Virus record (IMG/VR): IMGVR_UViG_3300025770_000022
Span: 1-59,006 of that record
DNA from: a virus
Reading direction: 5' to 3' (one strand)
DNA: 59,006 bases
Both the position numbers and the translations under genes were made by a program. Positions 7,401-28,261 of the stretch are shown here, piece by piece; the first letter of the stretch is position 1; the number at the start of each line of letters is the position of its first letter. The notes under the pieces were generated by a model, which was not told the DNA's origin, did no database searches, and saw nothing but the letters and a program-made list of their open reading frames with translations.

Positions 7401-10400
7401 ATCAGTTGTATGTGCAGTACCACCGTTTACTTCCCAAGAACCTGTCTCTGTCCAAACAACTTCTTTGAATGAAACATTGTCGAGTAGAATATTTGAACGC
7501 TGATTAATATCAACACTCATATAAACTTTAGCAAGTCCCTCGTGGTTATTTGTTACAAGGAATTGCTCTGAATTAGCACCTTTTATCATTGTAACTGGGT
7601 CAATATATTGGATAGTACCAAGTTCAATATTCATTGCTTGAATCTTAGGTAGTGCTCCTAATCCAGTTGCTGTTACTAGATTTCCAAGTTGTAACAAGTC
7701 TGCTTGAGTTCCCGCTACTGGGAACGCATTTGCAGGTTCTGGTTGTACTTGGAAGTAATCATTTCCTGTTCCGTTGTCTATTTGAATTTTATCTTTAATG
7801 TGTAATGGAGTGTACATATTTTCTTGACCGTGATGATAATAAACTACGATATCATCTCCAGCATTAACTACTGGAATGTCAATAATATTGAATGTACCAA
7901 CCATAGATGCGTGCCAACCACACTGATAATACAGTGTGTCTGGTGCAACTGAAGGTACAGTAAATTCTACAATCTCATACTTAGGAACTCCTGCGGCATC
8001 TAGTCCGAATTTAGAACCTGGGTCAGTTTGAACCCCTGCTCCTTCTTCTCCTCTAGAACCCGTGACACCCAATAGATACTCACCGAAGTAAGCGCCTGGG
8101 GTAAAGTGACTTCCGTCATCAGTAGTTATATAGAATGGATGACCAGGTGCGTTGACTCTAAATCTATAAGTAGCACCTCGGTATAAGTTAAGAGTTCTGT
8201 TTGTTCCCTCAATCATTCCTTCTTTATCAAATTTGTATAGTCCGCCATCATCTTCTACTGCGTAGTAGAGATTAGTTTCTCCTGGCGGTACGAATGGCCC
8301 AAATCCAGATACTCCATCAGCACCTGTTAGACCGAAATCTTCTGGGATTTTCCAAGTAAATTCTTTCGAGAAGTTACCAATCCATTGTGACACTCTCCAT
8401 TGTGCTAGTCCAACATCTTCATTTGGATTTAATGCGGTACATACTGAGTAGTCATCGACTCCATTGTAATACCAACCAGTTACATCTAGTTCTTCACACC
8501 ATCCACTCAATCCCATACAAACTGGGAATGGTTGGTCTGAAACCCAAGTTCCTGGGTTATCCTCAAGAGATACAAAGTCGTTTAGAGCCCCAGTTTCAAT
8601 GGTTAATCCGTGACTTGCGTTTTTATTAACACAATGATAGCCCTCATTTGGTTCGCCTAAGCCTCGTGTCATACCCGCTTGAACTAGGTTATCCCAGCCT
8701 CCACCAGGTATTGCTTTAATACCAGCGGCGTGCATATACATATCTTGCATTACACCAGTGAATGGGTCAGGAGCAGTAACGTGTCCTGAAGAACTCCAAG
8801 CATTATTTACAAATGTATATTTACCACCACGGAATAAGTCGAATCCTCCTGCTGTTCCTTCGTTACCACCGAATGCTTCGTGTTCTGCAATGTCTCTTTG
8901 ATAAGGATAGTAAGAGATGTTTGACATATCGTGCCAAGACCAGAACCAAGGAGAATCTTGTGCTCCTTCAACTGTAGTCTGGCCAGGGTCAGCGGCTGTA
9001 ATAGTAGATTGTGTATCGACAATAATTTCAAATCCGTCTGTGGGTCCGTAACCATCGCCAAGTGCAACAACTGTATGGTTCATCATTGCGCCAGGTAATT
9101 CAGTAGGCGTATATGGTTGTGGTCCAGATGGTAACTGAACAACATCACCAACTGATAATGCGTGATTGACTGATTTAACAGTTCTTGGTCGAGACCATAG
9201 AACTTCTACACCAGAGATGAACGGGTCACCAACGTGGTTAGTTAAATCTCGTTCAACTTCGTATCTAAAGGATGCCATATCAGCAACAACTTCATAACTC
9301 TCAATAACATTGAAGAAAGTTGGAGTAGTTCCTGGCGCATTCTCTAGAGGATAAATTACTGTTTCAGTTAATGCAAAGTGGTCCCAATCGATAACATAGT
9401 CAACAAAGTAATTTGTATTACCGTGATGAATTCCGTTATATACGTTAGTATAGTGTATCTTGTCGCCTGCTTTAAGTTGGTGTCCGTCTGATTCAATACC
9501 ACGTTCTTTCTTAACATATCCTGCGATATCTGTGAAAGGCGTTGCGATTGTAGAAGGATTCAAATCATCGCCACCTAAAGCGAAATCATATTTTCCAACT
9601 GTGAATTGACTTGACCCAGGATAGTATACTCTATCAAAATCGTGAATATGTTGGTCAATCGAAATAATTAAATATGTGTCATTTGCAGGGTCGATACATC
9701 CAAATTCTACTGTATGGAAATGCTGTGGGTCAGAAGTTCCGTAATTGGAAGTTCCAATCTTAGTTGCTCCGCCCGTATGACTCCAAGTTCCATCAGTGTC
9801 TTGTGTGACTCCAGTTAATGGACTTGCTTTTAGTGTCGCTTCGTCTGTTATGTCAAGGAGCAATTGATGATAATGACCAAAGTTAGTCAATTCAATATTA
9901 GTTCCGCCTTCGATAACATAGTATTCAGACATACCGTGAGTATGTGAGCCAGTCATTCCAACTATATACATTCCACCAGCACCATTGTTTAGTGCAGGGT
10001 CCCAGTTATATGTAACAGAGTGAGCGTGAGGAGAGTTATCTCCAGAGCCAGTTCCGTCTGTCGTTGACATTGAAATTACGTTTGTGCCTGTTTGAATAGT
10101 AGCGTATTCGGCAGTTGTGAGTTCACCAGTGTGTATGTGTCCGATAACATTAACGTCATCAAAGAATACATCGACTCGTGCATCACCTTTTTGTACTGCG
10201 GTGATAATATAATCTTCCCATTTACGCTCTCCAACTCCAACTACTGCTCCGCCACCCGTTGTGCTTCCGCCTGAACCATAACCAGTACCGCCTTGTTCTA
10301 GAGTAAGTGAAGTAATACTACCATCAACTGAGCCTGTTGCTAAAGCATTGACTGTTGGTGAACCACCAACAAATGTAACAGCAGGTGGGCCAGTATATTC

Positions 10401-15500: not shown

Positions 15501-18021
15501 CAACTAAGATACCATTTTTATATCTTAGTAATCCTGCCGTGTCAAGCACCTGCATATCGGCAGTAGTCTTTTCTAGAAGATTAAGTGCAGTGTAGTATTC
15601 TAAATTTTCAAGTCTATTTTCTATGCCACGAATATCTTGCATCGTAAATCTTTTATTCTTTACGTGAGATACATTAATATTCTTGTGGTTATATGTGTAC
15701 GCTGGTACAAATATATTATACAAGGTCATCTCATTCAATTCTTCAGTAGGAAGAACTGGTTCAGTAGAAGGGAAGCCTTGTTTAATCTGTATCTTTCCAT
15801 CGTCATTAATTGTCAGTCTATCTTTTCGTGGGAGATAGAAATCATAAGATACTGAGATGTTAGAAGAAGGTAGTGGCAAATATGTGCCAACTGCGTAATC
15901 GTCATCCGATGCTCTAAAGTCCATCCCATCAGCGGAAGGGTGACTCAATCCTGTTGAGTCTCTATATCCAAAAATGTCATCATAAGTGATACCAGAATCT
16001 GTATAACTGTTTACACATCTATATTGAGCGGTTGTGATATTACCAAGAATATAATGTTTATATGTTACTGTATATGTGCCAGGTTGACTTGGGTTAACTG
16101 CATCGTTCCAAGTTAATAGTGCATCGTTCAAAGAAGTATCAGTATCACCAGTTGTGAAGGTAAATGATGAAGTTACATCCGTAGTATCAGGTGCGATAAT
16201 AGAAACAATTTCTTCAACTGCGTGTGCAATTGTTAATGTGTCAGTAAGTGAAAGAACATAATCGGTTGATGTTGTAGATTTTGTCAATGCTCTCCAAGAA
16301 GCATTTGACATATACATATCTGCCATAATAGAGATATTATGTCCAGACAAATTCGTTGATGTGTTACCTGTGACTTGGTCTACTATTTCAATAAGTGCAG
16401 TTGTATTTCCTGTTAAGTCAGCCCTCCACGTATCACCAGAAGCGACAGTACCATATTGAGGTATAACTTGGTTTGTAAATTCGTCCCAGATATAAAGAAC
16501 TCGTTCCCAGTGCATATCATTGAAAACTGCGGGTACTGAAGCAACTGCTCCAGATAAGATAGCGGTTAAATTCTTTTGTGTAGAGTATGTTACTTGTCCT
16601 AGAGATAGTGCAGAAGTAATTGAATGGACCTTATAAATCCAAGGATAATTAACACCCTTACTAACTGCGATACCAGTTGGACGAGAGATTTTTGCGTATA
16701 CATCGGCATTCGTTTCAGAAACAATATATTGAGCGGGTGCGATAGCATCGAGGCCAGTATTGTTTTCTAGATAAATTCTGAATGCGTTGCCGTACTTTGT
16801 AACGTGTGTGATACGTTTTCTTATTCCGATAGTATTAACTGGACTCGTTGCAGAAGTGTAACCCGTGTCAGTAACAAGGATAACATATTCTTTATTCACA
16901 ACATTAAACACGCCGTGCATATCATCAATAGATGCTACTTCAAAGTATGGTCCAAATTCAGGATTGATATGGTCATTCGCTACGTGGCGAGTTGTTCTTG
17001 CCCTATCTGCTTCTACAGTTAGAGGAACTAAGAGTTCGTGTTCATATCCATTAATGTATGCTTTAGATGGGTCAACTTTAATAGAATACTTATCAACCGT
17101 ACTTCCCGTTTTAAATTCAATTGGGAATGGATTAATAGTATAGTTGCCAGACTCATCGAATGTTCGTTGAGCCATTTCATTACTAAGAAGTGAATAGTCA
17201 GTAGCCTCATACTTAGTAGTAATGATGCCATTCGTGACATCCATCATCCACAACCACTTATTAGATTCAGCGGAGTTGGCCTCTGCAATCAATGTAAGAG
17301 AAATTTGATATCTATCTCCACCTGGTGCATTCTGATTATAGAAACCAGAAGCAGGGTCAAGCAATCTTGGGTCAGTCGTTGATGCTACAATAGTTTCTTC
17401 AATATCGAATCCAACTTTTAATGTTGGTGTTGCAGAAATTGGGTCTAAGAAAATAGTTTGTGCTAGAATAGGAGTGAAGAAATTATCTAGCCAATAAACA
17501 CCGTTATCAACTCTTGCTTCTAGTCCTTGTCCTGTTCCTACGATGACGCCTGCTTTATATATTTGAGTCGCATCGTACCAATTGTTATCAGCACATTCAC
17601 CGTTTACATCAAAGCCGCCTTCACAAACAGTATCGTAACTTAATAGATTTTCGTTTGCTTGAAATTGTCCAGAAAGTATTCTGTAGTAATAGATAGGTTG
17701 CGTTTCATCATCGTGAAGTTGAGTAATTTCTGCAACTGCATTAGATGTTTCACCATAAACAATACGATTCAACCAAGAGGTATCAACCACAGCAAGTTGC
17801 ATCCATTCTCTTTTAGCAACACTAACTTCTCCGCCTACAACGGCAGAGCCATTCTTCCATATATGATTCGCAGAAGCGGACATTTGATTCTGAAGAATAG
17901 ATTGTATTTGAGTTAATTCTCTGGCCTGAACTGCTCGACCAGGATTAAACAGAATCTTTAAAAATTTGTCATCCGCATTATAGTCATCATAATATGGAGA
18001 TGTGTTGAAGTTATATGCCAT
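12583..18021 (-). CDS. DUF4815/VrlC-like large virion structural protein (1812 aa)
   Basis: N-terminus NTSPYYDDYNADDKFLKILFNPGRAVQARELTQIQSILQNQ; later RYKNGILVDPF, DPVAESF, SLFTSQNNTTWT motifs. Confidence 0.85.
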   Translation of the reverse strand: MAYNFNTSPYYDDYNADDKFLKILFNPGRAVQARELTQIQSILQNQMSASANHIWKNGSAVVGGEVSVAKREWMQLAVVDTSWLNRIVYGETSNAVAEITQLHDDETQPIYYYRILSGQFQANENLLSYDTVCEGGFDVNGECADNNWYDATQIYKAGVIVGTGQGLEARVDNGVYWLDNFFTPILAQTIFLDPISATPTLKVGFDIEETIVASTTDPRLLDPASGFYNQNAPGGDRYQISLTLIAEANSAESNKWLWMMDVTNGIITTKYEATDYSLLSNEMAQRTFDESGNYTINPFPIEFKTGSTVDKYSIKVDPSKAYINGYEHELLVPLTVEADRARTTRHVANDHINPEFGPYFEVASIDDMHGVFNVVNKEYVILVTDTGYTSATSPVNTIGIRKRITHVTKYGNAFRIYLENNTGLDAIAPAQYIVSETNADVYAKISRPTGIAVSKGVNYPWIYKVHSITSALSLGQVTYSTQKNLTAILSGAVASVPAVFNDMHWERVLYIWDEFTNQVIPQYGTVASGDTWRADLTGNTTALIEIVDQVTGNTSTNLSGHNISIMADMYMSNASWRALTKSTTSTDYVLSLTDTLTIAHAVEEIVSIIAPDTTDVTSSFTFTTGDTDTSLNDALLTWNDAVNPSQPGTYTVTYKHYILGNITTAQYRCVNSYTDSGITYDDIFGYRDSTGLSHPSADGMDFRASDDDYAVGTYLPLPSSNISVSYDFYLPRKDRLTINDDGKIQIKQGFPSTEPVLPTEELNEMTLYNIFVPAYTYNHKNINVSHVKNKRFTMQDIRGIENRLENLEYYTALNLLEKTTADMQVLDTAGLLRYKNGILVDPFVDHGIGDVIDEAYYCAIYPEAGICTVPYEMYGMDMVGGVKSNVKLNNLTYTLDFDVIEAWITQPMGSQVINLNPFARKSWVGFCTLTPQSDTWFEELYMPDVIIQNENNNAVTQQVETFGTQTRWNAWQTQWSGWADVGGRQNVREGAETITFGGNLSFGGGSGTTERAFETGRHWGSGTINNRPTRQRTVWRQITKVDTWDQNQQQTNNQLRTGTKSHMEINDIRTQVGDRFVDSSAIPWMRSVPVTIDVDKLRPSTQMHFEFDEINVDAYITPDGGAMGDAVWTDTAGRLRNAVLQIPSEGADGVRIRTGMKILAMKDNFTSPELMTTQAVGVFTSAGTLDRRQRDILSTLESYRVDEAISDTRAILGETRTISRSDTSGTSRTTRNVTEWYDPVAESFLVADEDGGVFVDSIDLFFWSKDDEETPVRVEIRTMSNGYPTTTVVPMASKMLYPEDVSTSTTGAVSTRFQFADPIYLMNGTEYCFVVISDSLKYNMWISELGEVDLLSGKYISEQPYLGSLFTSQNNTTWTAEQLKDIKFDMNKCAFTPTGDLQLDMKPYGDTKLAASFMPNFQPLVLSGTSLDIEGVVNGDINNIYGGVLDNEDVILENVVSLDGSHTIASGYQYTPISYNTTFKTDNTNLTPVLNKERLSTVLVNNIIYDTAPTVKNQMGIYQSKDVKLANFASDLQMFLSVQEVPNTYVKVYYDTGTVIPRYITTQPYANTITHGDYNVNDFEEYYAHIYPSGANSPENTITAQGSGIANWNGVIANPGQGVSAEVSTAYVDGDDDPANLTMMHLVDISNMKSIIRTCFISRKDLAGATSDVTTSGQGAGTDLSLYDVGDVWFGVWDDDLNRKFYEKVINADGTYSKQEVPVLEIDSIVPTEHPDYPIGLAVIEEEPVSWREMKDSGVTITNSSIQTNMEFIEHTFTPLKKVSHEFDHFRVKIELHTTHPCYLPAVREMRVLTLT

Positions 18022-18109: not shown

Positions 18110-19120
18110 TTAGAATTCTACTACGAGTTTCAAATCCTCAATCTGGTCAGATGCACGAGTAATAGCACGCCTGTTCTCAAGATAAATCAACTGTCCACTA
18201 TCGCTTTCTAAACTTACGTCTGCATCAGCATATACGGATGCTTGGGCTTTCGTTCCGCCACCAGCAAGTTCTGGATTACGCAAGAGTCCGATTTGTCGAA
18301 AGTCATCGTTCTCTGGGAATCCGTCTGAAGTCTCAAGTCTAACGTGAATCAATCCGTGGTGAGTTTTCGCTGTAAATATAGAATCTACATCACCGAAATC
18401 GGCCTGCTCAGACCCTGCAAGAACTCCTGTACCTGAAATAACTGGCATCCAGTCATTGGTAGTAGAGTTAATAATGTCGTTCAATTCTAGTTTATATAAG
18501 AATGTCCACGTATAGTTGTCAGATGTAGTAATCGCTTGAGCAACTAGTCCAGCGGCATCTCCAGTAAAGCCAGTTGGCTCTTCAGAAGCACCAGTAGGTA
18601 ACCAAAGTCCACCTAAAGTACCTTCACAAGTTGTTCGTGAAACAGCAGTTCCGCCATCAAAGACTCCACCAATATAGCATTTTCCGCCAGATGGTTCGCC
18701 TGTACACATATAAACTCGATATTCAGAATTCATCACAATACTGTGACTTCCGATTTTTGAAACAAAAGAACGGCCAGGTTCATCAATTCCTGTGATGCCG
18801 TTTGCGGCATCTCCGTCAAATGCGATAGTATCACCTGTTTCCCAGTTAATACGTGGAAGCACGGGTGAGATATCATCATTCTGAATTCGCTTGGTACCAA
18901 CAATGTCAGTCCAATATTGTGATTCATCCTCATCAAGAGGGTCAGGTAGAGTAAAGTTACCTGAACTTTCGTCATTTCCTTGAGCATCATTAGGCCAAGC
19001 GTCATTTCGCCCAAACCCTAGATACAGGAAGTTGTCGTCAACAGAACCAGTAGTTTTGAACTGGTCGATGAAAACCATCAAGTTCTGTGTTCTGAATTTA
19101 CTGGTTACAATTGCACCCAT
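18110..19120 (-). CDS. gp8: Baseplate wedge subunit
   Basis: AIVTSKFRTQN..YLGFGRNDAW..WTFLYKL..FRQIGLLRNP..IYLENRRAITRASDQIEDLKLVVEF. Confidence 0.9.
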   Translation of the reverse strand: MGAIVTSKFRTQNLMVFIDQFKTTGSVDDNFLYLGFGRNDAWPNDAQGNDESSGNFTLPDPLDEDESQYWTDIVGTKRIQNDDISPVLPRINWETGDTIAFDGDAANGITGIDEPGRSFVSKIGSHSIVMNSEYRVYMCTGEPSGGKCYIGGVFDGGTAVSRTTCEGTLGGLWLPTGASEEPTGFTGDAAGLVAQAITTSDNYTWTFLYKLELNDIINSTTNDWMPVISGTGVLAGSEQADFGDVDSIFTAKTHHGLIHVRLETSDGFPENDDFRQIGLLRNPELAGGGTKAQASVYADADVSLESDSGQLIYLENRRAITRASDQIEDLKLVVEF

Positions 19121-19210: not shown

Positions 19211-22200
19211 TTATGCCGGTACTGGCCATACGTTGCTATCGTCTACAGTAGTAGAGTGGACGTGGTCGCCCGCTCCAGAGCCCTGTGTGTTTTGTGACCA
19301 CTGACCACCAATTGGAACACTTCCCAAATATGATATTGTATCGTGGTTGTCATAGTCACTTGTTTGTGATATAATGTTATAAGTAGAACCATTCCACTCT
19401 AATACTAATTCGTGAGTGTATACGGCCGCGTGTGTACTATCTCTCTGTGGTGTAGTTACATAAGTTCCACCAATCAAGGATGTATAATCTGCAACACTTA
19501 TCCAGTAATCGTGGTCGTGGAATCCACCAGTTAGAGAGAATTTATGCACATATGTAGATGTTCCTGGTATAATATCCCATTGTGAAATACCAGCAACTAC
19601 AAATGTTCCCTTTGCTCCCATATTGGGATTAAATTTTATCGTATATCCGTGATAGTGGGAACTTGCTCCGTTTGGAGAATCAAAGAATATAATACCATAG
19701 TTGGCATTCTGAGCATTAATCAAATCATTTGCTTGTGCCAAAGTAATTGGTTCACACGTTCTTCCGACATTAACTCCCGCTGAATCCAAAGAGCATCCAT
19801 CATAAAGCAGGTGGTCGTGACTTCCGATACCAGCAATAAACGATGGTTGCATCTGAACAATGGGCGGGTTGTTTGCCTGAAGGACATTATTTACATAAGT
19901 TTTTCTTTCCGTTAAGTCTTCCACTTCGGAAGTTGTTTGACTTGTCGTAACTTCAGACGTAATAACTGGGTCACCAACCGATGTTTCAGTACCATAATCT
20001 GAATAGTATATAATATCAGTCGTGGTCGTTGTAATCTGGACCGTTGACGTTGTTGTCGTTGTGATTAAATCACTATATGTTACGATAATAGTTGTATCAC
20101 CAGTCGCAGGCGTATCTGGATACGTTGTTGTGACTGGTAGTAATTCGGTTGAAGCCTGCGTAACAACAACACTCGGTGCCGCAGAAAGAACTTCATCAGT
20201 TGATGTAGTCTTCGTTATATATATGCTACCACCAGTTTGCTGTGGTATTGCAACTAGATTTGGATTCCAGTCAATTGTCAAGTTATGCCAGTGAAGTCCT
20301 TCAGCCGCATTCTCAACTACAGATACATAATATTTAGTAGGGTCTTGAAGTGAATCTTCAATGCCACCTTTAATCCAAGTCACTGACCAATCAGCATAGA
20401 ATATATTATAATTAGTATCCCATTTAATTCTGTACTCGTGAAAGTGAGCACCCTCAATTGAATCGTAAATAGTAACACTATCTACAACACCATCAATCAG
20501 TTGCATACCTTGGTCAATCGTCATTCCGTGAGCGTAAGAAATCTGTCCAGTCAAAGCCCCTTCTGCAAATGGTCCCACAACTGTATCATTATGAAAGTGA
20601 GGGTGAGAACCACCTGGATAAGGATATCCAGGAGAAGCAAATGTCGGTAGAATTTCCATCATCTCATTATAACCTGGTCGTGAAAACAGATTAGAGATGT
20701 TCGTTGGATGTGCGTGTGACCTTGGGTCTGCGGAATAGAATTGATGTCCGTCAGATGATTCCCATTTCTCAGTATCTAACGCAACGAAACTTAATGTATT
20801 TGGGTCGTATGTAATTGTGATTCCGTGATAATGGTCTCCGCCTGAGATAGATGTATATGTTTTTACTTCAGTCACTTCACCATTAATCAAATCAGTTGCT
20901 TGATTATCATCTAATGGTAATGCTTGTCTGCCAGTGTGTGTTCCGAGAGTGTCTAATGTTGTTCCGTTAAATGCGTGTAGATGGTCTGGTTCAGAGCCTT
21001 CTAATTTATGCCAATCGTGTGCATTTGATAATGTAACATCAGGAGCAGTATACAATGGTGTACCATTCCAACCAAGATGGGTCGTTATACCATTAACTAA
21101 AAGGGTATGCTCGTGAGTTCGTAGATGTGTATCTACTGCTTCCCATTCTCCAGTACTGTTTTCATCCCACATCTCAGCCATTTCGTCTGCAACAAATTGT
21201 TGCGTAGAAAGATTCCACATAATTTTATATACGTGATAATGTTGATGCTGGCCAGAATCTTCAATAGAAGAATAAACATAAAATGCGTTTACTACTCCAT
21301 TAGCAAGTTCTTCTGCTTGTATTCTCGTAATCGGTACAGCCGTTCTACCATCATTAGCACCAAATGTATCTAGTGTCTCACTATTGAAATAGTGGATGTG
21401 AGCGTTCTCGCCATATTCGTTTGCTCCAAGTATCTCTACTACGGGAGCAGTCTCAATATAAAATGTTCCGTCATCATCGTCATCATCGACAGCAAGATAA
21501 GGCGTATCAGAGCCTGTGTCGTATGGTTCCCAAACTAGAGTTAGAGGATTCAAATGCCATCCAGCAGATGAACCAAGAAGAATATTTTCATCTACTATTC
21601 CAGTCCACGAAGTAATTACAGGATGCAAGTGAGAGACAGGAGTATTATAAGTCCATATAGGGAAGAAAGCATCCCAGTCAGTCATTTCAATATCAGATAT
21701 CTCAGTTGCAGAGAATAATTCTGTGTTAATGTCGTATACTACTTTATATCCGTGAACGTGAGCCGTTTCAGAAGCAGGGATTTGTGAAGATGCACCCGTT
21801 TCTGTAGAGGAATCATATGTATCAGTTAGTTTGTATATATCACAATTCTGTGGGCCAGTTCCTTGATAACTATCAATACCAATTCTTGTAGCCATATAAA
21901 GTTCGCCATTAGTGTCTTCACCTAATGTCAATACAGATTGGTCGTGAGTTGTTAAGTTCAATACAGATGTTGCAGGGTCCCAGAAAGATAAATTCTTTCT
22001 TGTATATCCTACATCGCCATTGTATTCGATAAATGTGAATACATCGTGGTTCTCCATATTCGTTTGTGCTATCAGATTCCAAGTATTGAAAGTCGCATTC
22101 CATATAATGGAGAATGTGTGAGTATAACTTTCAGCGTGAACCGTATCACTCTGAACAACAACAATTGGTGTTCCAGGATTCGCTTGAGCCATCGCAACTT

Positions 22201-25200
22201 GACTCGGAGTTAATATAGCCTCGTGACTATGATTTGCTCCATTGATTGCATTAGGAGTTATTGTGAAGTGTGCAGAAAGTCCATCAGGATTTTCTTCTAG
22301 TGAAAAGAGATGACCAGTAGTACCAGCCCAACTCGTACTCCAATCTCCGAATATGTATTTGCCTTGAAGTCCAGTTAAGTCACTTCCCCTATAGATGAAT
22401 CCACCTAAGATAGAAATACCAGTTCCGTGACTGTACTCGTGAATAGGTGATTTTAAATCAAGAAGAAATGCTTGAGTATTTGCATAGCCTTGGTCTAATG
22501 CCATTTGGTCAATAGTTGCTTGGTCTTCTTCAAAGTAATGATATGCTTCCATTACTCTCCAACCATAGTTGCCGCCCTTTTCGATAATGTTTACTTCTTC
22601 AAATTTATTTTGTCCAACATCAGCCGCCCATAGTTTACCATCTGGAGCAAAAGAGAATCTCCAAGGATTTCTTAATCCGTATGCCCATATCTCTTCTCTA
22701 AACATTGCACCCGCAGTACCGTGTGGTTTTGCATTTACACCAGTGAAGGGGTTATCGGAAGGTATGGAATAAGGTTTATTATTAACTGTGTCTGGTGCGA
22801 CATCAATTCTAAGAATTGTGCCCAATATGTTAGTAGGGTTCTGTGCATTACCATATACTCCGTGTCCGCCGTGACCGCTAGAACTCGAAGTATCTCCCGC
22901 ATTTCCGCCGTCACCGAATCCGATATAGAGATAACCATCTGGGCCAAATACTAATTGACCACCGTTATGATTCATATCAGGTTGTGGCTGTGTGATTAAA
23001 ATTCGTTCAGTAGTAATATCAACTGTCTCTGCCGCAACGTCAGCCGTGAACTCAGCAATGATTGAAGTTGAAAGAGGATATCCGTATGAGCCAGTAGATG
23101 GACCTTGCTCTGTCATATAATAGACATACAAGAGTCCGTTTGTTGCGTAATCTGGATGGAATGCAAGTCCTAGAGCGCCACGTTCATCATATGCACCGAA
23201 TGGCCCGACTCCGATAGTCAGATTAAGAGAAGTGTAGTCGAAAAATAATGATTTGACACCAGACGTAGTATCCATCAAGTGAATGATTCCAGATTGGTCT
23301 ACAATACAGATTTTATCTGGGTCCATCGGATACGCTACAATAGTCGCAATGTCTGTGCCTGTACCCATCTTAACATCCCCTAGTAAATCTCCAGTATCAC
23401 CAGAGCCAGGAACTTGTTGAATATAGTTAGATGAATATAATTCTACCCAGTCTACATTAGGTACTAGCGTAGCAGGGAAAGTCTGTGCGTGTTGGAATGT
23501 AAATGATGCTTCACCAATTGCAGTAGCAACCGTGGCATCATCAAGTTCATTGAATACATTCTGTCCGAGATTCATTGTGTTACCAGAATAATCAACACCG
23601 TCAATTAAACTAGGGTCAACCACAAGTTCTGGTTTATAGTTATAACATATCCACGTAGTAACTGGCGTATATCTAAATCCGTGCGTACAAGGATTACCCA
23701 TAAAGTCAGTATTCATTTCCCAGTCTGATTCGTATGTGACTAGGTACTCGTGATAATGTGCAGAGGTAATTCCATTTGAATCGGCTACCGTACCGCCTTG
23801 GAAGACGCCATTTTCATCTGTCTCAGGGACCCCGTTGGTAGTTATTCCGATACTATCGTAAAGAGTTACGTCTGTGATATCTCCGTCAATTAATTTTCTT
23901 GCATCGGCTCTTGATAGAGGGTCAGATACACGACCACGTTGTCTGTCTACAATTTGACCATCTACAAATCTATGAACGTGACCCGTTGCTTCAGGCAAGA
24001 ATGCAGTCGTATGAACATCTGCAAGGAATTCTGGAATTTCAAAAGCATCAGAATTCATTAATGCTCTTGCTTGAGAATAACTTAGTCCGTGAGCCGTTGC
24101 TTCTTTTCCGTGAACCATTAAATTAGGTATTGCACTTCCATCAAAACTATGAACGTGAAACGCTGCCGCTCCAACACTCATCAATGGAAGTTCAAGTCCT
24201 TTAGTAAGACTTGTAGATACTAGTGGTGCGAAACCATTCTTTCTTCCGTGGGAATGGATTACATTAGGGTTATCAAACGCCTGTATCTGAACCGCATCAA
24301 TAACGTCATTTGTATTCCCGTATACTTTTTTAACTAGTGTGTCTTCTCGACCACTCTCGAATGCGCCGTAACTCTTTTCAGGAGCGTATTCGGCTTCTTG
24401 CATAAACGATTCAACCCATTCAACAACTCTAGAAAGATGTTTGAATACGGACAATTCATAAACGTCACAAGAAATCATTCTACCGTCTGTGGTATTCTCT
24501 AGATTATCCTCAATGCCTAATTCAGTAACAGAAGGTGGGAACTCTTCAATAGGTAGAACTCGGAGAAGATTAGTAAATTCAAATACAACCTTCTCAGGCC
24601 AAGCATTAATCTGGTTCTTGATTTCATCACGGAGAATATTAATTTGATAGAGTTTCTCTGTAAGTTTGGTACCAATAGTCTTGATTTCATTTTTATCAGT
24701 TACTATATCAACCCCTACGTGTTCACCAGGAGCACCCCAATTATCAGGAGTTACTAAGGCAGCCCTTGAATCGAGATTACCCATCATTTCAATGATATAT
24801 TCGTCAAAGCCTTTCTCAATGAAGACTCCAAATCCAGTATGAGCCCTTCCGACTGAACCGTGTTGTTCGCTCTCTTGGTCCCAGATATCAACCGCGACAT
24901 CAAGATAAGAGAATATCGCAATAATCATCTTGACGTAATCGGTAGGTAATTCGATTACCAAATCAACTGTAGACCTAAACGAGAACTCAGCAAATAATTT
25001 CAGTCCAACAGGGTGAACTAGTTTTTTAAGAACTTCTCTATACGACTGAATAGGTACATCACTTCGGATAACATAAGAGAAATCTTGGTAGTAGTCATTA
25101 TCTTGGAGTTTTCTGTCAGAAGACAGGAAGCCGCCAGAGTCAAGCCAGTAACCATTTGTTTTCCAAACGGCCGTCTTGACATTAGGTTGAGTCTCGATAT

Positions 25201-26482
25201 TAACAAGAGCATCACACTCTTCTCGTGTCAAAGGAGGACTACTTACATTTAATAGTATATTGTGTTCTACGTCTTGAAGGGTCTTAGTAATATCGACTAC
25301 TGGGTACCACGAAAGAAACGCACTCTCTCCGAAATAGGGGCTCGCCTTGTCTAACCCATCCGGGTGCAACGCCGCCACACAATCAACCTCAGTAGTAAAC
25401 GTATGAAGAACTGGCCAATCCGTAGAGATACTACAGAATGATTGGCTCGGGTTTTCCCAATAGTTGTTCGCCGCCACGTTAAATAATTTCTCACCTAACT
25501 CAAACTCACCAGTTACTTCTAATAGGTTCAGTTTTGTCCAGTCAGTATCAGTACCATCAATGGTTGCTGTAGCACCAGAGGTTAATCCTTTTATTAGTGA
25601 ACCACCCTCTCTGTGTACCCCTGCCGCGTGTAGGTAATGAACTTCATTTGGATGTCCACTAATATTAATCCATTTATCTGTCCATTTGTGCCCATTGACA
25701 ATACATTCACCCTCTGTCCGAATACCGTCAGAGATGATTAGTGCTTTATAGGGTATAGTGCCAGATGTACCAACGTCTTCCCAGATTTCTTCGTCTTTAA
25801 TGAATACGCCATTTACTTCGGTTAATAGGAGTCGCTCGTAGTCTGTAGTAGAGACTGATTCGTCCATATCCACGAAAGCCGTTGCGCCGCTAATTTGGCC
25901 ACGGATTTTTTTGTTGTAGATAGACCGTACCGTCTCGGCCACGTGTGAGTTATTCGTGTTGCCGAAATAGGGCGATGCAGAATCTAGTGTGGCTTGGTCA
26001 GTTAGTACCGTAATCCATTGTGGCTCATACCATACAGAGCCAGACGCCTTCATCATCCATTGCTTTGGATACATCGTATCAACGTCTGTATTAAAGTCTC
26101 GTCTGAATAGAAACTCTAGGGCAGAAGTAGTACCTTTCTGTCTATAGACAGGTTGGATATTCTTAGCAAGGAAGGACTTGTCAGTAGTCTCTACTGTTGG
26201 GTCTATTGAGGTGTGTGGTGTACCGTGGAGATACTTAGCCTCGAATTCTGGTATGAAATTATCTAGTGCGTGGTCAACATCAATGTTCTGAATCAAATCA
26301 GTTATTTGATTGTACTCGCCTAGTTCCCCATTAACACCAGTCTCTCGTTCCAAGTATTCAAAATACTTGCGAAGGAAAGTGATGAACATAGGATGGTCTT
26401 CCCGTACATAGTCGGGCACCATTCTCTCAACAAAGACCGATAGGAACTTAGCAGGAGATTTAGTAAATTTATCGTTAGCCAT
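19211..26482 (-). CDS. gp7: Baseplate wedge initiator (gp7-like), extended to 2423 aa with His-triad repeats and a glucose/sorbosone dehydrogenase (GSDH) domain
   Basis: VPDYVREDHPMFITFLRKYFEYLE, YRQKGT..LEFLFR, GFLSSDRKLQDNDYYQDFSYVIRS..VHPVGLKLFAEF; position between gp6 and gp8; GSDH motifs HNGGQLVFGPDGYLYIGFGDGG and EIWAYGLRNPWRFSF. Confidence 0.85.
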   Translation of the reverse strand: MANDKFTKSPAKFLSVFVERMVPDYVREDHPMFITFLRKYFEYLERETGVNGELGEYNQITDLIQNIDVDHALDNFIPEFEAKYLHGTPHTSIDPTVETTDKSFLAKNIQPVYRQKGTTSALEFLFRRDFNTDVDTMYPKQWMMKASGSVWYEPQWITVLTDQATLDSASPYFGNTNNSHVAETVRSIYNKKIRGQISGATAFVDMDESVSTTDYERLLLTEVNGVFIKDEEIWEDVGTSGTIPYKALIISDGIRTEGECIVNGHKWTDKWINISGHPNEVHYLHAAGVHREGGSLIKGLTSGATATIDGTDTDWTKLNLLEVTGEFELGEKLFNVAANNYWENPSQSFCSISTDWPVLHTFTTEVDCVAALHPDGLDKASPYFGESAFLSWYPVVDITKTLQDVEHNILLNVSSPPLTREECDALVNIETQPNVKTAVWKTNGYWLDSGGFLSSDRKLQDNDYYQDFSYVIRSDVPIQSYREVLKKLVHPVGLKLFAEFSFRSTVDLVIELPTDYVKMIIAIFSYLDVAVDIWDQESEQHGSVGRAHTGFGVFIEKGFDEYIIEMMGNLDSRAALVTPDNWGAPGEHVGVDIVTDKNEIKTIGTKLTEKLYQINILRDEIKNQINAWPEKVVFEFTNLLRVLPIEEFPPSVTELGIEDNLENTTDGRMISCDVYELSVFKHLSRVVEWVESFMQEAEYAPEKSYGAFESGREDTLVKKVYGNTNDVIDAVQIQAFDNPNVIHSHGRKNGFAPLVSTSLTKGLELPLMSVGAAAFHVHSFDGSAIPNLMVHGKEATAHGLSYSQARALMNSDAFEIPEFLADVHTTAFLPEATGHVHRFVDGQIVDRQRGRVSDPLSRADARKLIDGDITDVTLYDSIGITTNGVPETDENGVFQGGTVADSNGITSAHYHEYLVTYESDWEMNTDFMGNPCTHGFRYTPVTTWICYNYKPELVVDPSLIDGVDYSGNTMNLGQNVFNELDDATVATAIGEASFTFQHAQTFPATLVPNVDWVELYSSNYIQQVPGSGDTGDLLGDVKMGTGTDIATIVAYPMDPDKICIVDQSGIIHLMDTTSGVKSLFFDYTSLNLTIGVGPFGAYDERGALGLAFHPDYATNGLLYVYYMTEQGPSTGSYGYPLSTSIIAEFTADVAAETVDITTERILITQPQPDMNHNGGQLVFGPDGYLYIGFGDGGNAGDTSSSSGHGGHGVYGNAQNPTNILGTILRIDVAPDTVNNKPYSIPSDNPFTGVNAKPHGTAGAMFREEIWAYGLRNPWRFSFAPDGKLWAADVGQNKFEEVNIIEKGGNYGWRVMEAYHYFEEDQATIDQMALDQGYANTQAFLLDLKSPIHEYSHGTGISILGGFIYRGSDLTGLQGKYIFGDWSTSWAGTTGHLFSLEENPDGLSAHFTITPNAINGANHSHEAILTPSQVAMAQANPGTPIVVVQSDTVHAESYTHTFSIIWNATFNTWNLIAQTNMENHDVFTFIEYNGDVGYTRKNLSFWDPATSVLNLTTHDQSVLTLGEDTNGELYMATRIGIDSYQGTGPQNCDIYKLTDTYDSSTETGASSQIPASETAHVHGYKVVYDINTELFSATEISDIEMTDWDAFFPIWTYNTPVSHLHPVITSWTGIVDENILLGSSAGWHLNPLTLVWEPYDTGSDTPYLAVDDDDDDGTFYIETAPVVEILGANEYGENAHIHYFNSETLDTFGANDGRTAVPITRIQAEELANGVVNAFYVYSSIEDSGQHQHYHVYKIMWNLSTQQFVADEMAEMWDENSTGEWEAVDTHLRTHEHTLLVNGITTHLGWNGTPLYTAPDVTLSNAHDWHKLEGSEPDHLHAFNGTTLDTLGTHTGRQALPLDDNQATDLINGEVTEVKTYTSISGGDHYHGITITYDPNTLSFVALDTEKWESSDGHQFYSADPRSHAHPTNISNLFSRPGYNEMMEILPTFASPGYPYPGGSHPHFHNDTVVGPFAEGALTGQISYAHGMTIDQGMQLIDGVVDSVTIYDSIEGAHFHEYRIKWDTNYNIFYADWSVTWIKGGIEDSLQDPTKYYVSVVENAAEGLHWHNLTIDWNPNLVAIPQQTGGSIYITKTTSTDEVLSAAPSVVVTQASTELLPVTTTYPDTPATGDTTIIVTYSDLITTTTTSTVQITTTTTDIIYYSDYGTETSVGDPVITSEVTTSQTTSEVEDLTERKTYVNNVLQANNPPIVQMQPSFIAGIGSHDHLLYDGCSLDSAGVNVGRTCEPITLAQANDLINAQNANYGIIFFDSPNGASSHYHGYTIKFNPNMGAKGTFVVAGISQWDIIPGTSTYVHKFSLTGGFHDHDYWISVADYTSLIGGTYVTTPQRDSTHAAVYTHELVLEWNGSTYNIISQTSDYDNHDTISYLGSVPIGGQWSQNTQGSGAGDHVHSTTVDDSNVWPVPA

Positions 26483-26500: not shown

Positions 26501-28261
26501 TCAATTGATACTCTGCATCGTTACACTACTAGTATTTAGTACGAGTAGATTACTTCGGATTGCCGTAATATCATTTGATTGCGGAGTAGCGTACAAACTT
26601 ATTACTGAATTAGTGTCTAACACGGGTCTAAATCCAATTAACTCTATGATTCCATTGGTATAGTCGATGGTACCTTGCTCTGTATTGAGGAATTGCTCAT
26701 TAACAATGTCGTATAATAGAATATTGCCTTGGCCATCGTCTAATAGAGCATACTGGGACCCCGTATCTGTATTACCGAATACACTTGACACGGCAGTACC
26801 AGGTGTGATAGCATTATCATACTTAAAGATATAGTTACCAACGGTATTGGATGCTTGAATAAAAAACTTCTTATAAAACTTGACAGACGTTAAATTATTT
26901 GATATACTTTCATCAGCAATGTCAATAGTATTACCAAGGCGGGAATACCTCATTGTCACTTTAAATGCAGATATCTCTTCCTCAAAGAAGGCCTGAATGT
27001 CTGCTATTACTTTACTCTGTATCTCACCAGCACTCAAACTGGTTAAGACAGGGTTATACTTGACTGTGCTAATAACATCAATGTAGGTGTACTCTGGTGC
27101 TGTTATAATAGGGTTTATGGCTAACATATTGTATTTACTCAATATATCAGTCGTTAATTTTTGTTTGGTCAATGGTGACAACTCTAGGCCGTGCTTAGGC
27201 TTGATACAAATGAATACTGCACCATACTGAGGAGGGTCATTATCTTCACCACCCCATACGGCTATTGAATCAATATTAGGATACTTCTCTATTAATATAT
27301 TCTTATAGTCCTCTGCGGTCACTGCCCTATCTTGTCTCTCATAGGCTCTTGGTGCTGTAAGTTTAATGTTTTCAGTGGTCTCTGCACTCGCACCTAGAGA
27401 AGAGATGTCCACAGTGTCCACCGTCACGTGGGAGTCGGTGTAGACGTTGGCTATAGTCGATTCAAGTGCGAACACTTGCTCATTAATAGTAGAGGTATAG
27501 TTACCTGGAGCACCCACCGTAGATAGGTAAGTTACTTTAACTGATTGACCATCAAGAGGTATTTTGCCAAAGATGCCATTGCCGAAGTATATCTCACTAA
27601 CTCCATCAAGGCCTTCCTGAACAAAGAATGAATTACTCGTAGGGGTCAATTCGCTTAATACTTTGTTGACTTCCCAAGGCTTGTCATTAACAAGCATAGT
27701 AATAGTAGAGCGGTCACAGGTAGCATCATTAATAAAGAAGGACTGGGCTTCCGCAGTAGCGTCATATGTCCATTCAAGGCCTTTTAATGTCCCTTGATGC
27801 AACTTAATTTCGCCAGCGAACTCTCCACCCTCGTCTGCAAACACATTAACAGTAGATAAATTGGTAAATGGAAGAGGTACACCAGTAATATTAGATACAA
27901 ATTGAGTACCTTTCTCTACAATAATGTAACTTGGGTCATATCCAGTCGTATCAAACTCTAGTTTAACAATAGATTCAGCGGCTGTAACGCTCTTAGGTAT
28001 ATATCCAATGCTCTTAGCGTGACTCACAACACTATTTCGGAGCGTTGCGGTATCTAAAAATGCCTCATTGACTGCCATATTCGTATGGAAACCCATATAG
28101 TGTGTAGTATATGCCATTACATCCAGCATTACACTCATACCAGAGCCGTCAAAGTCATAGTCCAAGAACTCAGTCTGACCCTTCATAAAGGTCTTGATGT
28201 TCTTCTTAATGCCATCGAACTCTAGGTCCGATAAGTTTAATGCTTTCTTATTCTGTGCCAT
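26501..28261 (-). CDS. gp6: Baseplate wedge subunit
   Basis: LEFDGIKKNIKTFMKGQTEFLDYDFDGSG..EAFLDTATLRNSVVSHAK..RAVTAEDY..WGGEDNDPPQYGAVFI. Confidence 0.92.
   Translation of the reverse strand: MAQNKKALNLSDLEFDGIKKNIKTFMKGQTEFLDYDFDGSGMSVMLDVMAYTTHYMGFHTNMAVNEAFLDTATLRNSVVSHAKSIGYIPKSVTAAESIVKLEFDTTGYDPSYIIVEKGTQFVSNITGVPLPFTNLSTVNVFADEGGEFAGEIKLHQGTLKGLEWTYDATAEAQSFFINDATCDRSTITMLVNDKPWEVNKVLSELTPTSNSFFVQEGLDGVSEIYFGNGIFGKIPLDGQSVKVTYLSTVGAPGNYTSTINEQVFALESTIANVYTDSHVTVDTVDISSLGASAETTENIKLTAPRAYERQDRAVTAEDYKNILIEKYPNIDSIAVWGGEDNDPPQYGAVFICIKPKHGLELSPLTKQKLTTDILSKYNMLAINPIITAPEYTYIDVISTVKYNPVLTSLSAGEIQSKVIADIQAFFEEEISAFKVTMRYSRLGNTIDIADESISNNLTSVKFYKKFFIQASNTVGNYIFKYDNAITPGTAVSSVFGNTDTGSQYALLDDGQGNILLYDIVNEQFLNTEQGTIDYTNGIIELIGFRPVLDTNSVISLYATPQSNDITAIRSNLLVLNTSSVTMQSIN

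What the first reader, a model, noticed from the sequence alone, without database searches (positions are those of the whole stretch)
21880..23370. PQQ-type glucose/sorbosone dehydrogenase propeller built into baseplate wedge gp7
A full GSDH/aldose-sugar-dehydrogenase six-blade motif set is present in-frame within the core wedge protein: [90 protein letters not shown]. The HNGG His, associated with catalysis in this family, is retained. A metabolic-type enzyme fold fused to an essential baseplate scaffold is very unusual. It could bind or oxidise surface sugars, or act as a redox module.
Basis: partly seen in the sequence, partly recalled or inferred. Interest (0 to 1): 0.8.

Follow-up and report, generated by a model that had tools for sequence, protein, structure and literature searches.

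The report
Sugar-dehydrogenase-type propeller in phage baseplate
An uncultured marine T4-like phage carries a complete six-bladed propeller of the sugar-dehydrogenase / Hedgehog-interacting-protein family in an optional outer extension of its baseplate protein gp7, where it most likely grips a host-surface sugar, although real redox chemistry on the virion is not excluded.

Summary
Residues ~1035-1556 of the 2423-aa ORF 19211-26482 (-) are a genuine GSDH domain (PF07995, E 7e-33). The model is a six-bladed propeller (Z 39.9 to HHIP, ~36 to PQQ aldose dehydrogenases). The ORF is gp7 by family hits and by gp25-gp6-gp7-gp8 gene order.

It is not a chimera. About 30 IMG/VR contigs and more than 25 protein clusters carry the same collinear fusion, and contigs from three independent marine studies bridge both domain junctions.

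The propeller belongs to the HHIP-like branch. It keeps the catalytic-type His and the Arg-Asn pair. Like its closest cellular relatives, it lacks the Lys/Arg-x-Arg clamp that holds PQQ in sGDH/Asd. Cellular members of the same branch are fused to cytochrome c or cupredoxin, so a redox role remains open.

Close relatives with a 711-aa gp7 lack the whole distal extension, so the propeller is an accessory decoration, not core scaffold.

My reading and odds:
- sugar-binding adhesion module, ~0.5
- active virion oxidoreductase, ~0.25
- inert scaffold, ~0.2

A blue-copper-type domain sits on a neighbouring virion protein, but it is also common in cyanophages that have no GSDH.

The scan has already noted this fusion on other genomes of the same phage clade.

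The parts
19211..26482 (-). gp7-type baseplate wedge gene, 2423 aa
   Evidence: ORF list and translation. PF23786 31.9 bits (cut-off 27) and phrog_17744 E 2.6e-45. tblastn hits to 'baseplate wedge subunit/initiator' genes of phiM12 and cyanophages.
24143..26482 (-). Wedge core, aa 1 to ~780. This is the only part present in the short-gp7 relatives.
   Evidence: L148 and L149 encode a 711-aa gp7 that aligns to aa 3-777 and is followed directly by gp8. L202 encodes a 608-aa gp7.
23693..24265 (-). First His-rich (HxH) modules, aa ~740-930, upstream of the propeller
   Evidence: HxH positions 743, 776, 835 and 909. No Pfam family found for modules of this type.
21815..23380 (-). GSDH-family, HHIP-like six-bladed beta-propeller, aa ~1035-1556
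   Evidence: PF07995 E 7e-33. AlphaFold2 model pLDDT 80.7, pTM 0.85. Foldseek top hit HHIP at E 1e-23, then sGDH/Asd. VIA-align Z 39.9 to HHIP, 36-37 to Asd, 33-35 to sGDH.
22958..22972 (-). N-H-N-G-G motif. His1172 is the equivalent of the sGDH general base His144.
   Evidence: Alignments with Acinetobacter sGDH and E. coli YliI. Invariant in 34 phage and cellular sequences.
22661..22675 (-). Arg1271-Asn1272, equivalents of sGDH Arg228/Asn229
   Evidence: Alignments. Invariant in alignment A1. HHIP has His-Asp at this position.
21944..22237 (-). ~98-aa His-rich module inserted in a loop before the last blade, aa ~1416-1513
   Evidence: Present in all phage copies and absent from all cellular homologues. 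Modelled as one helix plus strands, block pLDDT 65-91.
19214..21805 (-). C-terminal array of His-rich (HxH) modules with a Thr/Ser-rich linker, aa 1560-2423
   Evidence: 17 HxH sites and 5.1% His. No Pfam or Atlas match.
26501..28261 (-). gp6 baseplate wedge gene, upstream neighbour
   Evidence: phrog_219 E 4e-153. About 35% identity to pelagiphage, Melnitz and cyanophage gp6.
18110..19120 (-). gp8 baseplate wedge gene, downstream neighbour
   Evidence: PF09215 Phage-Gp8 E 3.5e-30.
7845..8267 (-). Context: cupredoxin-fold domain with a type-1-copper ligand set (His43, Cys116, His119, Met122 of the fragment) in the 2570-aa virion protein. It is a possible electron acceptor only under the redox rival.
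   Evidence: The four ligands are invariant in 28 viral sequences. AlphaFold2 pLDDT 86.6. All top Foldseek hits are cupredoxins. No Pfam hit.

Best explanation
The gene is the gp7-type wedge protein of an uncultured marine T4-like myovirus. Its first ~780 residues form the wedge core. The remaining ~1650 residues are an optional distal extension built from His-rich modules. At aa ~1035-1556 the extension holds a complete six-bladed propeller of the glucose/sorbosone-dehydrogenase family, HHIP-like branch. The propeller was captured once from a secreted cellular protein.

Shown here:
- the domain, its fold and its reading-frame continuity;
- its conservation across a phage clade;
- retention of every residue that is invariant in the cellular branch, including the His/Arg/Asn pocket;
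- absence of the canonical PQQ clamp;
- loss of the secretory Cys pair;
- dispensability of the whole extension.

Inferred: one copy per wedge is displayed at the baseplate periphery (six per virion, by analogy with T4 gp7). Its conserved central pocket binds a sugar of the host envelope and so contributes reversible adhesion or host recognition. Turnover of the sugar is not required for this role.
For: - Domain and fold.
- Accessory nature: close relatives have gp25/gp6/gp8 at 78-84% identity but a 711-aa gp7 without the extension. This is the pattern expected of exchangeable host-interaction modules.
- The propeller tolerates lineage-specific loop insertions: a His module in all copies, a Cys-rich insert in L014/L015, a ~110-aa insert in L024/L025 and a ~90-aa insert in L005/L012.
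- Pocket conservation: 70 of 85 cellular-invariant columns, including all motif residues, are invariant in 13 phage copies at 55-79% identity.
- The Lys377/Arg406/Arg408 equivalents are absent. They are present in every solved Asd/sGDH that could be aligned there.
- TIGR03606 scores 79 bits against a cut-off of 434.
- The closest solved relative, HHIP, is a binding protein, and one entry is a heparin complex.
- Cellular members of the branch are also fused to C-type lectin domains; other fusion partners are listed only by precomputed Pfam accession.
- From established knowledge: baseplates assemble in the cytoplasm, whereas known PQQ enzymes receive the cofactor outside it.
Against: - Co-opted binding propellers usually lose catalytic residues. 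HHIP has His-Asp in place of Arg-Asn, whereas this domain keeps them all.
- Single-propeller cellular members of the same branch, also without the clamp, are fused to cupredoxin (P0184, P0187) or cytochrome c (P0237). This argues that the branch is redox-active.
- Fungal CcSDH lacks the bacterial PQQ-binding residues yet is PQQ-dependent (PMC4133262).
- No binding data, ligand or host are known.
Confidence: 0.5

Rival explanations
1. The propeller is a working oxidoreductase on the virion. It oxidises a sugar, free or on the host surface, with PQQ or another bound cofactor. It passes the electrons on, possibly to the blue-copper-type cupredoxin domain on the neighbouring 2570-aa virion protein.
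For: - All branch-invariant pocket residues are kept, including His1172 and Arg1271/Asn1272.
- In the quick tree the phage clade nests inside a well-supported clade (SH-aLRT 99) that also contains the cupredoxin- and cytochrome-c-fused cellular proteins.
- A cupredoxin-fold domain with an invariant His/Cys/His/Met set lies in the same structural gene block. It is present on every long contig that has the gp7-GSDH fusion.
- Loss of the bacterial PQQ-binding residues does not exclude PQQ dependence (PMC4133262).
Against: - The PQQ carboxylate clamp is absent.
- No PqqC or PqqD gene was found in five related contigs of 33-69% completeness, which is weak evidence.
- The cupredoxin-type domain occurs in 199 cultured cyanophage records, and no cyanophage record has a GSDH match. 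It also occurs in 12 other viral contigs without GSDH. Its presence here is therefore expected by base rate and does not indicate a partnership.
- No terminal electron sink is evident.
- From established knowledge, virions assemble in the cytoplasm, away from the place where PQQ enzymes are normally loaded.
- No member of this branch has been characterised biochemically, as far as the PDB and the paper library show.
Confidence: 0.25
2. The propeller is an inert, rigid spacer or display platform. Its pocket is not used. What matters is its shape and the modules inserted into or flanking it, namely the His-rich modules.
For: - It accepts large loop insertions, which differ between lineages.
- It is flanked on both sides by His-rich modules.
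- The whole extension is dispensable in relatives.
- The phage clade sits on a long stem of 1.15 substitutions per site.
Against: An unused pocket should drift. Instead all motif residues are invariant across copies that are only 55-79% identical, and the 15 changed cellular-invariant columns lie outside those motifs and are mostly conservative.
Confidence: 0.2
3. The fusion is an assembly chimera that joins a cellular dehydrogenase gene to a phage gene.
For: None was found. Only the general risk that comes with metagenome assemblies applies.
Against: - 25 to 30 IMG/VR contigs from different samples are collinear over the whole gp7 at 52-80% identity.
- More than 25 protein clusters carry PF23786 together with PF07995.
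- Logan contigs from three independent DNA studies and one RNA library bridge nt ~23395 and ~21800, with no joints.
Confidence: 0.01

Closest known systems
Prokaryotic HHIP-like 'PQQ-dependent sugar dehydrogenases' (Pfam GSDH PF07995; secreted or lipoprotein forms of ~400-530 aa, e.g. from Bacteroidia and Thermoplasmatota MAGs)
   Same: They are 41-49% identical over the propeller. They share the same invariant motifs and also lack the Arg-x-Arg clamp. In the quick tree the phage clade groups with a Thermoplasmatota-rich set (SH-aLRT 93).
   Different: The phage copy has no signal peptide and has lost the conserved Cys pair. It has gained a ~98-aa His-rich insert and a helical insert, sits on a long branch, and is embedded in a virion protein. 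None of these cellular proteins appears to have been characterised.
Vertebrate Hedgehog-interacting protein (HHIP) propeller (PDB 3HO3, 2WFX, 7PGM)
   Same: It is the best solved match by sequence (profile E 2e-61) and by structure (Z 39.9, rmsd 2.9 over 352 residues, 29% identity). The last-blade motif is of the same type.
   Different: HHIP has lost the Arg-Asn pair (His-Asp instead) and is a non-enzymatic binder of Hedgehog and heparan sulfate. The phage domain keeps the Arg-Asn pair.
PQQ-dependent soluble glucose / aldose sugar dehydrogenases (A. calcoaceticus sGDH 1C9U, E. coli YliI/Asd 2G8S, P. aerophilum 3A9G)
   Same: Same six-bladed fold (Z 33-37). The equivalents of the general-base His, of Arg228/Asn229 and of the G-G-N-Y-G-W motif are conserved.
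   Different: The Lys377 and Arg406/Arg408 equivalents are missing. TIGR03606 scores far below its cut-off. Identity is only 19-24%.
Fungal AA12 PQQ-dependent pyranose dehydrogenases (CcSDH/CcPDH 6JT5, T. reesei AA12 6H7T)
   Same: Six-bladed relatives (Z 26-27) that also lack the bacterial PQQ-binding residues yet use PQQ. They show that loss of the clamp is not proof of inactivity.
   Different: They are much more distant, are fused to a cytochrome and a CBM1, and are secreted fungal enzymes.
T4 gp7 and other phage baseplate or receptor-binding proteins that carry co-opted carbohydrate-active or propeller domains (own knowledge: virion depolymerases; the five-bladed propeller platform of staphylococcal phage phi11 Gp45)
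   Same: The wedge protein sits between gp6 and gp8, and a peripheral accessory domain is presumably directed at host glycans.
   Different: No GSDH-family domain was found in 50,697 phage records, apart from misfiled Acinetobacter contigs. Among BFVD viral models it was found only in giant-virus entries. phmmer finds no direct similarity to solved T4 gp7 chains.

Membership tests
Pfam GSDH (PF07995) fold family | Profile score above the gathering threshold | tested here: met
   114.7 bits against a cut-off of 25, E 7.2e-33. A six-frame search of the record gives 118.6 bits.
Pfam GSDH (PF07995) fold family | Complete six-bladed beta-propeller | tested here: met
   AlphaFold2 model pTM 0.85. 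It aligns over model residues 1-527 to HHIP, Asd and sGDH with Z 33-40 and rmsd ~2.6-3.7.
PQQ-dependent sGDH/Asd enzymes (TIGR03606 type) | General-base His (sGDH His144) and Arg228/Asn229 | tested here: met
   His1172 and Arg1271/Asn1272 align with them and are invariant in 34 sequences.
PQQ-dependent sGDH/Asd enzymes (TIGR03606 type) | PQQ carboxylate clamp: Lys377 and the Arg406-x-Arg408 motif of the last blade | tested here: not met
   The phage and its closest cellular relatives have non-basic residues at these positions. The motif is present in YliI, 7CDY, 2ISM, 3A9G and sGDH.
PQQ-dependent sGDH/Asd enzymes (TIGR03606 type) | NCBIfam subfamily score above cut-off | tested here: not met
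   79.2 bits against a cut-off of 434.55.
PQQ-dependent sGDH/Asd enzymes (TIGR03606 type) | PQQ/Ca2+ binding and sugar oxidation | not testable with these tools
   This needs protein biochemistry or cofactor co-folding. PQQ is not an offered ligand.
HHIP-like branch of GSDH | Closest to HHIP and HHIP-like sequences; D-V-G-Q motif and an acidic last-blade motif instead of Arg-x-Arg | tested here: met
   Profile against PDB gives HHIP E 2e-61 and sGDH/Asd 1e-29. Motifs shown. Tree.
T4-type gp7 baseplate wedge protein | Wedge family profile hit | tested here: met
   PF23786 31.9 bits (cut-off 27). phrog_17744 E 2.6e-45 over aa 12-236.
T4-type gp7 baseplate wedge protein | Gene order gp25-gp6-gp7-gp8 | tested here: met
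   phrog_261/43 for gp25, phrog_219 for gp6, PF09215 for gp8. The same order is seen in relatives.
T4-type gp7 baseplate wedge protein | Detectable similarity to the solved T4 gp7 chain | tested here: inconclusive
   No PDB hit for aa 1-560 or for the N-terminal profile. The sequence is too divergent for phmmer/hmmsearch.
Type-1 copper cupredoxin (neighbouring domain, 7845-8267) | Cupredoxin fold with a His...Cys-x2-His-x2-Met ligand set | tested here: met
   All top Foldseek hits are cupredoxins. The four ligands are invariant in 28 sequences. There is no Pfam hit, and copper binding is untested.

The most novel reading that the evidence does not exclude
The propeller is catalytically active on the virion. 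That would make it the first oxidoreductase built into a phage baseplate. It would oxidise a sugar and hand the electrons to the blue-copper-type domain on the neighbouring structural protein, so that this marine phage clade carries a small extracellular redox chain used during host contact.
Probability: 0.2. Interest if true: 0.85.

Novelty: new variant of a known kind. Interest (0 to 1): 0.55.

Why it matters
Phage baseplates are known to carry hydrolases, lyases and lectin-like domains for host glycans. A quinoprotein-family propeller with an intact pocket has not been described in a virion.

If it only binds, it adds a new fold to the repertoire of phage receptor-binding modules. It also gives a handle on the unknown host of an abundant, uncultured marine T4-like lineage: near-identical DNA is held in runs from 10 studies, including metatranscriptomes.

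If it turns over substrate, it would be the first virion-borne oxidoreductase. It would also point to a function for the large, uncharacterised HHIP-like branch of 'PQQ-dependent sugar dehydrogenases', whose vertebrate members include HHIP and HHIPL.

Tried and rejected
- Pfam at E up to 10 and the ESM Atlas gave nothing usable for the His-rich modules.
- phmmer/hmmsearch of the gp7 N-terminus against the PDB found no T4 gp7.
- PqqC (PF03070) and PqqD (PF05402) were not found in five related contigs of 33-69% completeness. These are fragments, so this is weak.
- A gp7 N-terminus search in five distant cupredoxin-bearing contigs found nothing, which is uninformative.
- hhalign of the phage cupredoxin-type domain against a cellular GSDH-cupredoxin fusion aligned only the copper loop.
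- Paper searches for sorbosone dehydrogenase + baseplate, PQQ-dependent sugar dehydrogenase + phage, and cupredoxin + phage + baseplate found nothing relevant. One query was malformed. The 'GSDH domain'/HHIP search gave only eukaryotic HHIP papers.
- The first two calls with the finder's raw coordinates were out of frame.
- I considered and dropped an LPMO-like reading of the His modules. From my own knowledge, a histidine brace needs the N-terminal His, which internal modules cannot provide.
- Complex prediction was not used. A transient electron-transfer pair is a poor case for it.
Full report
**Observation.** The window is a 59-kb IMG/VR viral contig, estimated 27% complete. ORF 19211-26482 on the minus strand encodes 2423 aa. 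Pfam GSDH (PF07995) matches aa 1100-1379 at E 7.2e-33, 114.7 bits against a cut-off of 25. Alignment with cellular homologues places the whole domain at aa ~1035-1556, nt 21815-23380.

**Which gene it is.** The N-terminus hits the baseplate wedge families PF23786 and phrog_17744. It also matches genes annotated as baseplate wedge subunit or initiator in phiM12 and cyanophages. The neighbours are gp25, gp6 (phrog_219, E 4e-153) and gp8 (PF09215, E 3.5e-30), with gp5 further upstream and a DUF4815 giant protein downstream. The gp6 protein is only ~35% identical to any cultured phage, the nearest being pelagiphage HTVC008M, Melnitz and cyanophages. This is therefore an uncultured marine T4-like lineage. 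phmmer and hmmsearch did not reach the solved T4 gp7 chain, so the gp7 assignment rests on profiles and gene order.

**Not an artefact.**
- Pattern scans of IMG/VR returned 25-30 contigs from different samples. In these the propeller is 55-79% identical and lies inside ORFs of 1900-3100 aa that are collinear with the whole window protein.
- The 5.8-billion-protein collection holds more than 25 clusters with PF23786 plus PF07995, the closest at 95% identity. Some lie on contigs up to 153 kb.
- Near-identical DNA is held by marine runs from 10 studies.
- Contigs from three independent DNA studies and one metatranscriptome bridge both domain boundaries without any joint.

**Fold and family.** An AlphaFold2 model of aa 1030-1560 (pLDDT 80.7, pTM 0.85) is a six-bladed propeller.
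- By sequence profile the nearest solved protein is HHIP (E 2e-61), ahead of sGDH and the aldose sugar dehydrogenases (~1e-29 to 1e-22).
- By structure, HHIP gives Z 39.9 (rmsd 2.9 over 352 residues, 29% identity). PQQ aldose dehydrogenases give Z 35-37, sGDH 33-35 and fungal AA12 about 26-27.
- NCBIfam TIGR03606, the sGDH subfamily, scores 79 bits against a cut-off of 434.

**Pocket residues.** I aligned the domain with an Acinetobacter sGDH orthologue, an Acinetobacter YliI homologue and E. coli YliI.
- Kept: the general-base His (His1172) and the Arg-Asn pair (Arg1271/Asn1272).
- Missing: the Lys377 equivalent and the Arg-x-Arg motif of the last blade. These are also missing in the closest cellular relatives.
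- The Arg-x-Arg motif is present in every solved Asd/sGDH whose C-terminal blade could be aligned (YliI, 7CDY, 2ISM, 3A9G and sGDH).
- HHIP, a pure binding protein, has also lost the Arg-Asn pair, so the phage domain is less degenerate than HHIP.
- Of 85 columns invariant in 21 cellular relatives, 70 are invariant in 13 phage copies. None of the 15 exceptions lies in a conserved motif.
- Matsumura et al. (PMC4133262) showed that a fungal relative lacking the bacterial PQQ-binding residues is nevertheless PQQ-dependent. Absence of the clamp therefore lowers the odds of a PQQ enzyme but does not exclude it.

**Cellular relatives.**
- Thousands of stand-alone secreted or lipoprotein forms share 41-49% identity with the phage domain.
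- In longer cellular proteins the same branch is fused to C-type lectin domains, and one search lists further partner families by precomputed Pfam accession.
- The branch, with the same motifs and no clamp, is also fused to cytochrome c or to plastocyanin-type cupredoxin. These include single-propeller proteins (P0184, P0187, P0237). This is the best argument that the branch as a whole is redox-active.
- A quick maximum-likelihood tree puts all phage copies in one clade (SH-aLRT 100) on a long stem. That clade groups with a set rich in Thermoplasmatota MAG proteins (support 93) and lies inside the clade that also holds the redox fusions. The careful tree search did not finish, so the donor is tentative.

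**Phage-specific changes.**
- All phage copies carry a ~98-aa His-rich module inserted before the last blade. It resembles the C-terminal module of the same protein.
- A conserved Cys pair of the secreted cellular forms is replaced by a longer helical segment. This fits folding in the cytoplasm.
- Individual lineages have further large loop insertions.

**Accessory, not core.** A profile scan with the gp7 N-terminus found 27 loci with at least 5.2 kb downstream, and 24 of them have the propeller. There are three exceptions.
- L148 and L149 have gp25, gp6 and gp8 at 78-84% identity to the window. Their gp7 is only 711 aa. It ends at the equivalent of aa ~777 and is followed directly by gp8.
- L202, a more distant relative, has a 608-aa gp7.

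The whole His-module/propeller extension is thus dispensable for building a wedge.

**The blue-copper lead.** Earlier first-reader notes on this genome pointed to cupredoxin motifs.
- I confirmed one in the 2570-aa virion protein (nt 7845-8267). A His and a Cys-x2-His-x2-Met set are invariant in 28 viral sequences. The AlphaFold2 pLDDT is 86.6, and all top Foldseek hits are cupredoxins.
- Every long contig with gp7-GSDH has it.
- The same domain, however, occurs in 199 cultured cyanophage records; in the listed rows it lies mostly under 'baseplate wedge tail fiber connector' genes. No cyanophage record has a GSDH match. It also occurs in 12 other viral contigs without GSDH.
- The co-occurrence is therefore expected by base rate and is not evidence of a dedicated redox pair.

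**Reading.** I put about 0.5 on a glycan-binding adhesion module that uses the conserved pocket, about 0.25 on a truly active oxidoreductase, about 0.2 on an inert display scaffold and about 0.01 on an artefact.
- Shown: the domain, fold, continuity, conservation, residue pattern and accessory status.
- Inferred: its position at the baseplate periphery (from T4 gp7), the ligand class, and whether turnover occurs.

**Novelty.**
- No GSDH domain was found in 50,697 deposited phage records, apart from Acinetobacter bacterial contigs filed as phage.
- Among BFVD viral models, GSDH domains appeared only in giant-virus entries.
- Nothing relevant was found in the paper library.
- The scan itself has already flagged the same fusion on other genomes of this clade, with similar conclusions.
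- New in this report: the cupredoxin and cytochrome c fusions of the cellular branch, the short-gp7 relatives, the independence of the cupredoxin-type domain from GSDH, the loss of the Cys pair, and the read-level continuity.

Noticed in passing
window 19214-21805 and 23693-24265 (gp7 aa 1560-2423 and 740-930): There are about ten His-rich modules of ~100 aa. Each has HxH sites at the start, middle and end, plus a short helix, giving 22 HxH sites in gp7. No Pfam or Atlas match was found. A cyanophage gene matched by the gp7 N-terminus is annotated 'YHYH domain-containing' (H45).
   Followed up: partly
window 7845-8267 (-), in ORF 4422-12134: This is a cupredoxin-fold domain with an invariant type-1-copper ligand set (His, then Cys-x2-His-x2-Met). 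It is conserved in 80 IMG/VR loci and in 199 cultured cyanophage records; in the listed rows it lies mostly under 'baseplate wedge tail fiber connector' genes. Pfam does not detect it.
   Followed up: yes
window 1910-2350 (-), in ORF 767-4351: A second, weaker cupredoxin-like stretch (PF13473, E 0.0027, below the cut-off). It has no Cys/His/Met copper loop and is probably degenerate.
   Followed up: partly
L148:2214-4346 and L149:3698-5830: Close relatives of this phage carry a 711-aa gp7 that stops at the equivalent of aa ~777 and is followed directly by gp8. These are natural short-gp7 variants that lack all His modules and the propeller.
   Followed up: yes
L014/L015, L024/L025, L005/L012 (propeller region): The propeller has lineage-specific loop insertions: a Cys-rich ~125-aa insert in blade 1 (L014/L015), a ~110-aa insert before the I-P-x-D-N-P-F motif (L024/L025), and a ~90-aa extra segment near the His insert (L005/L012).
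   Followed up: partly
L028, L029 (INPHARED records CAKLQH020000031.1 and CAKLQH020000008.1): Records named 'Acinetobacter phage MD-2021a' carry ordinary bacterial genes (sGDH/yliI, rarA, a universal stress protein). They look like bacterial contigs filed as phage, and they are the only GSDH hits in the phage collection.
   Followed up: partly
window 12583-18021 (-): An 1812-aa DUF4815 protein (PF16075, E 1e-57; phrog_358) lies directly after gp8, where the gp9/gp10-type connector genes would be expected.
   Followed up: no
window 21000-24500: Contigs of a marine metatranscriptome library (X10) cover the propeller region at 95-99% identity. This is compatible with expression in situ, but DNA carry-over cannot be excluded.
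   Followed up: partly
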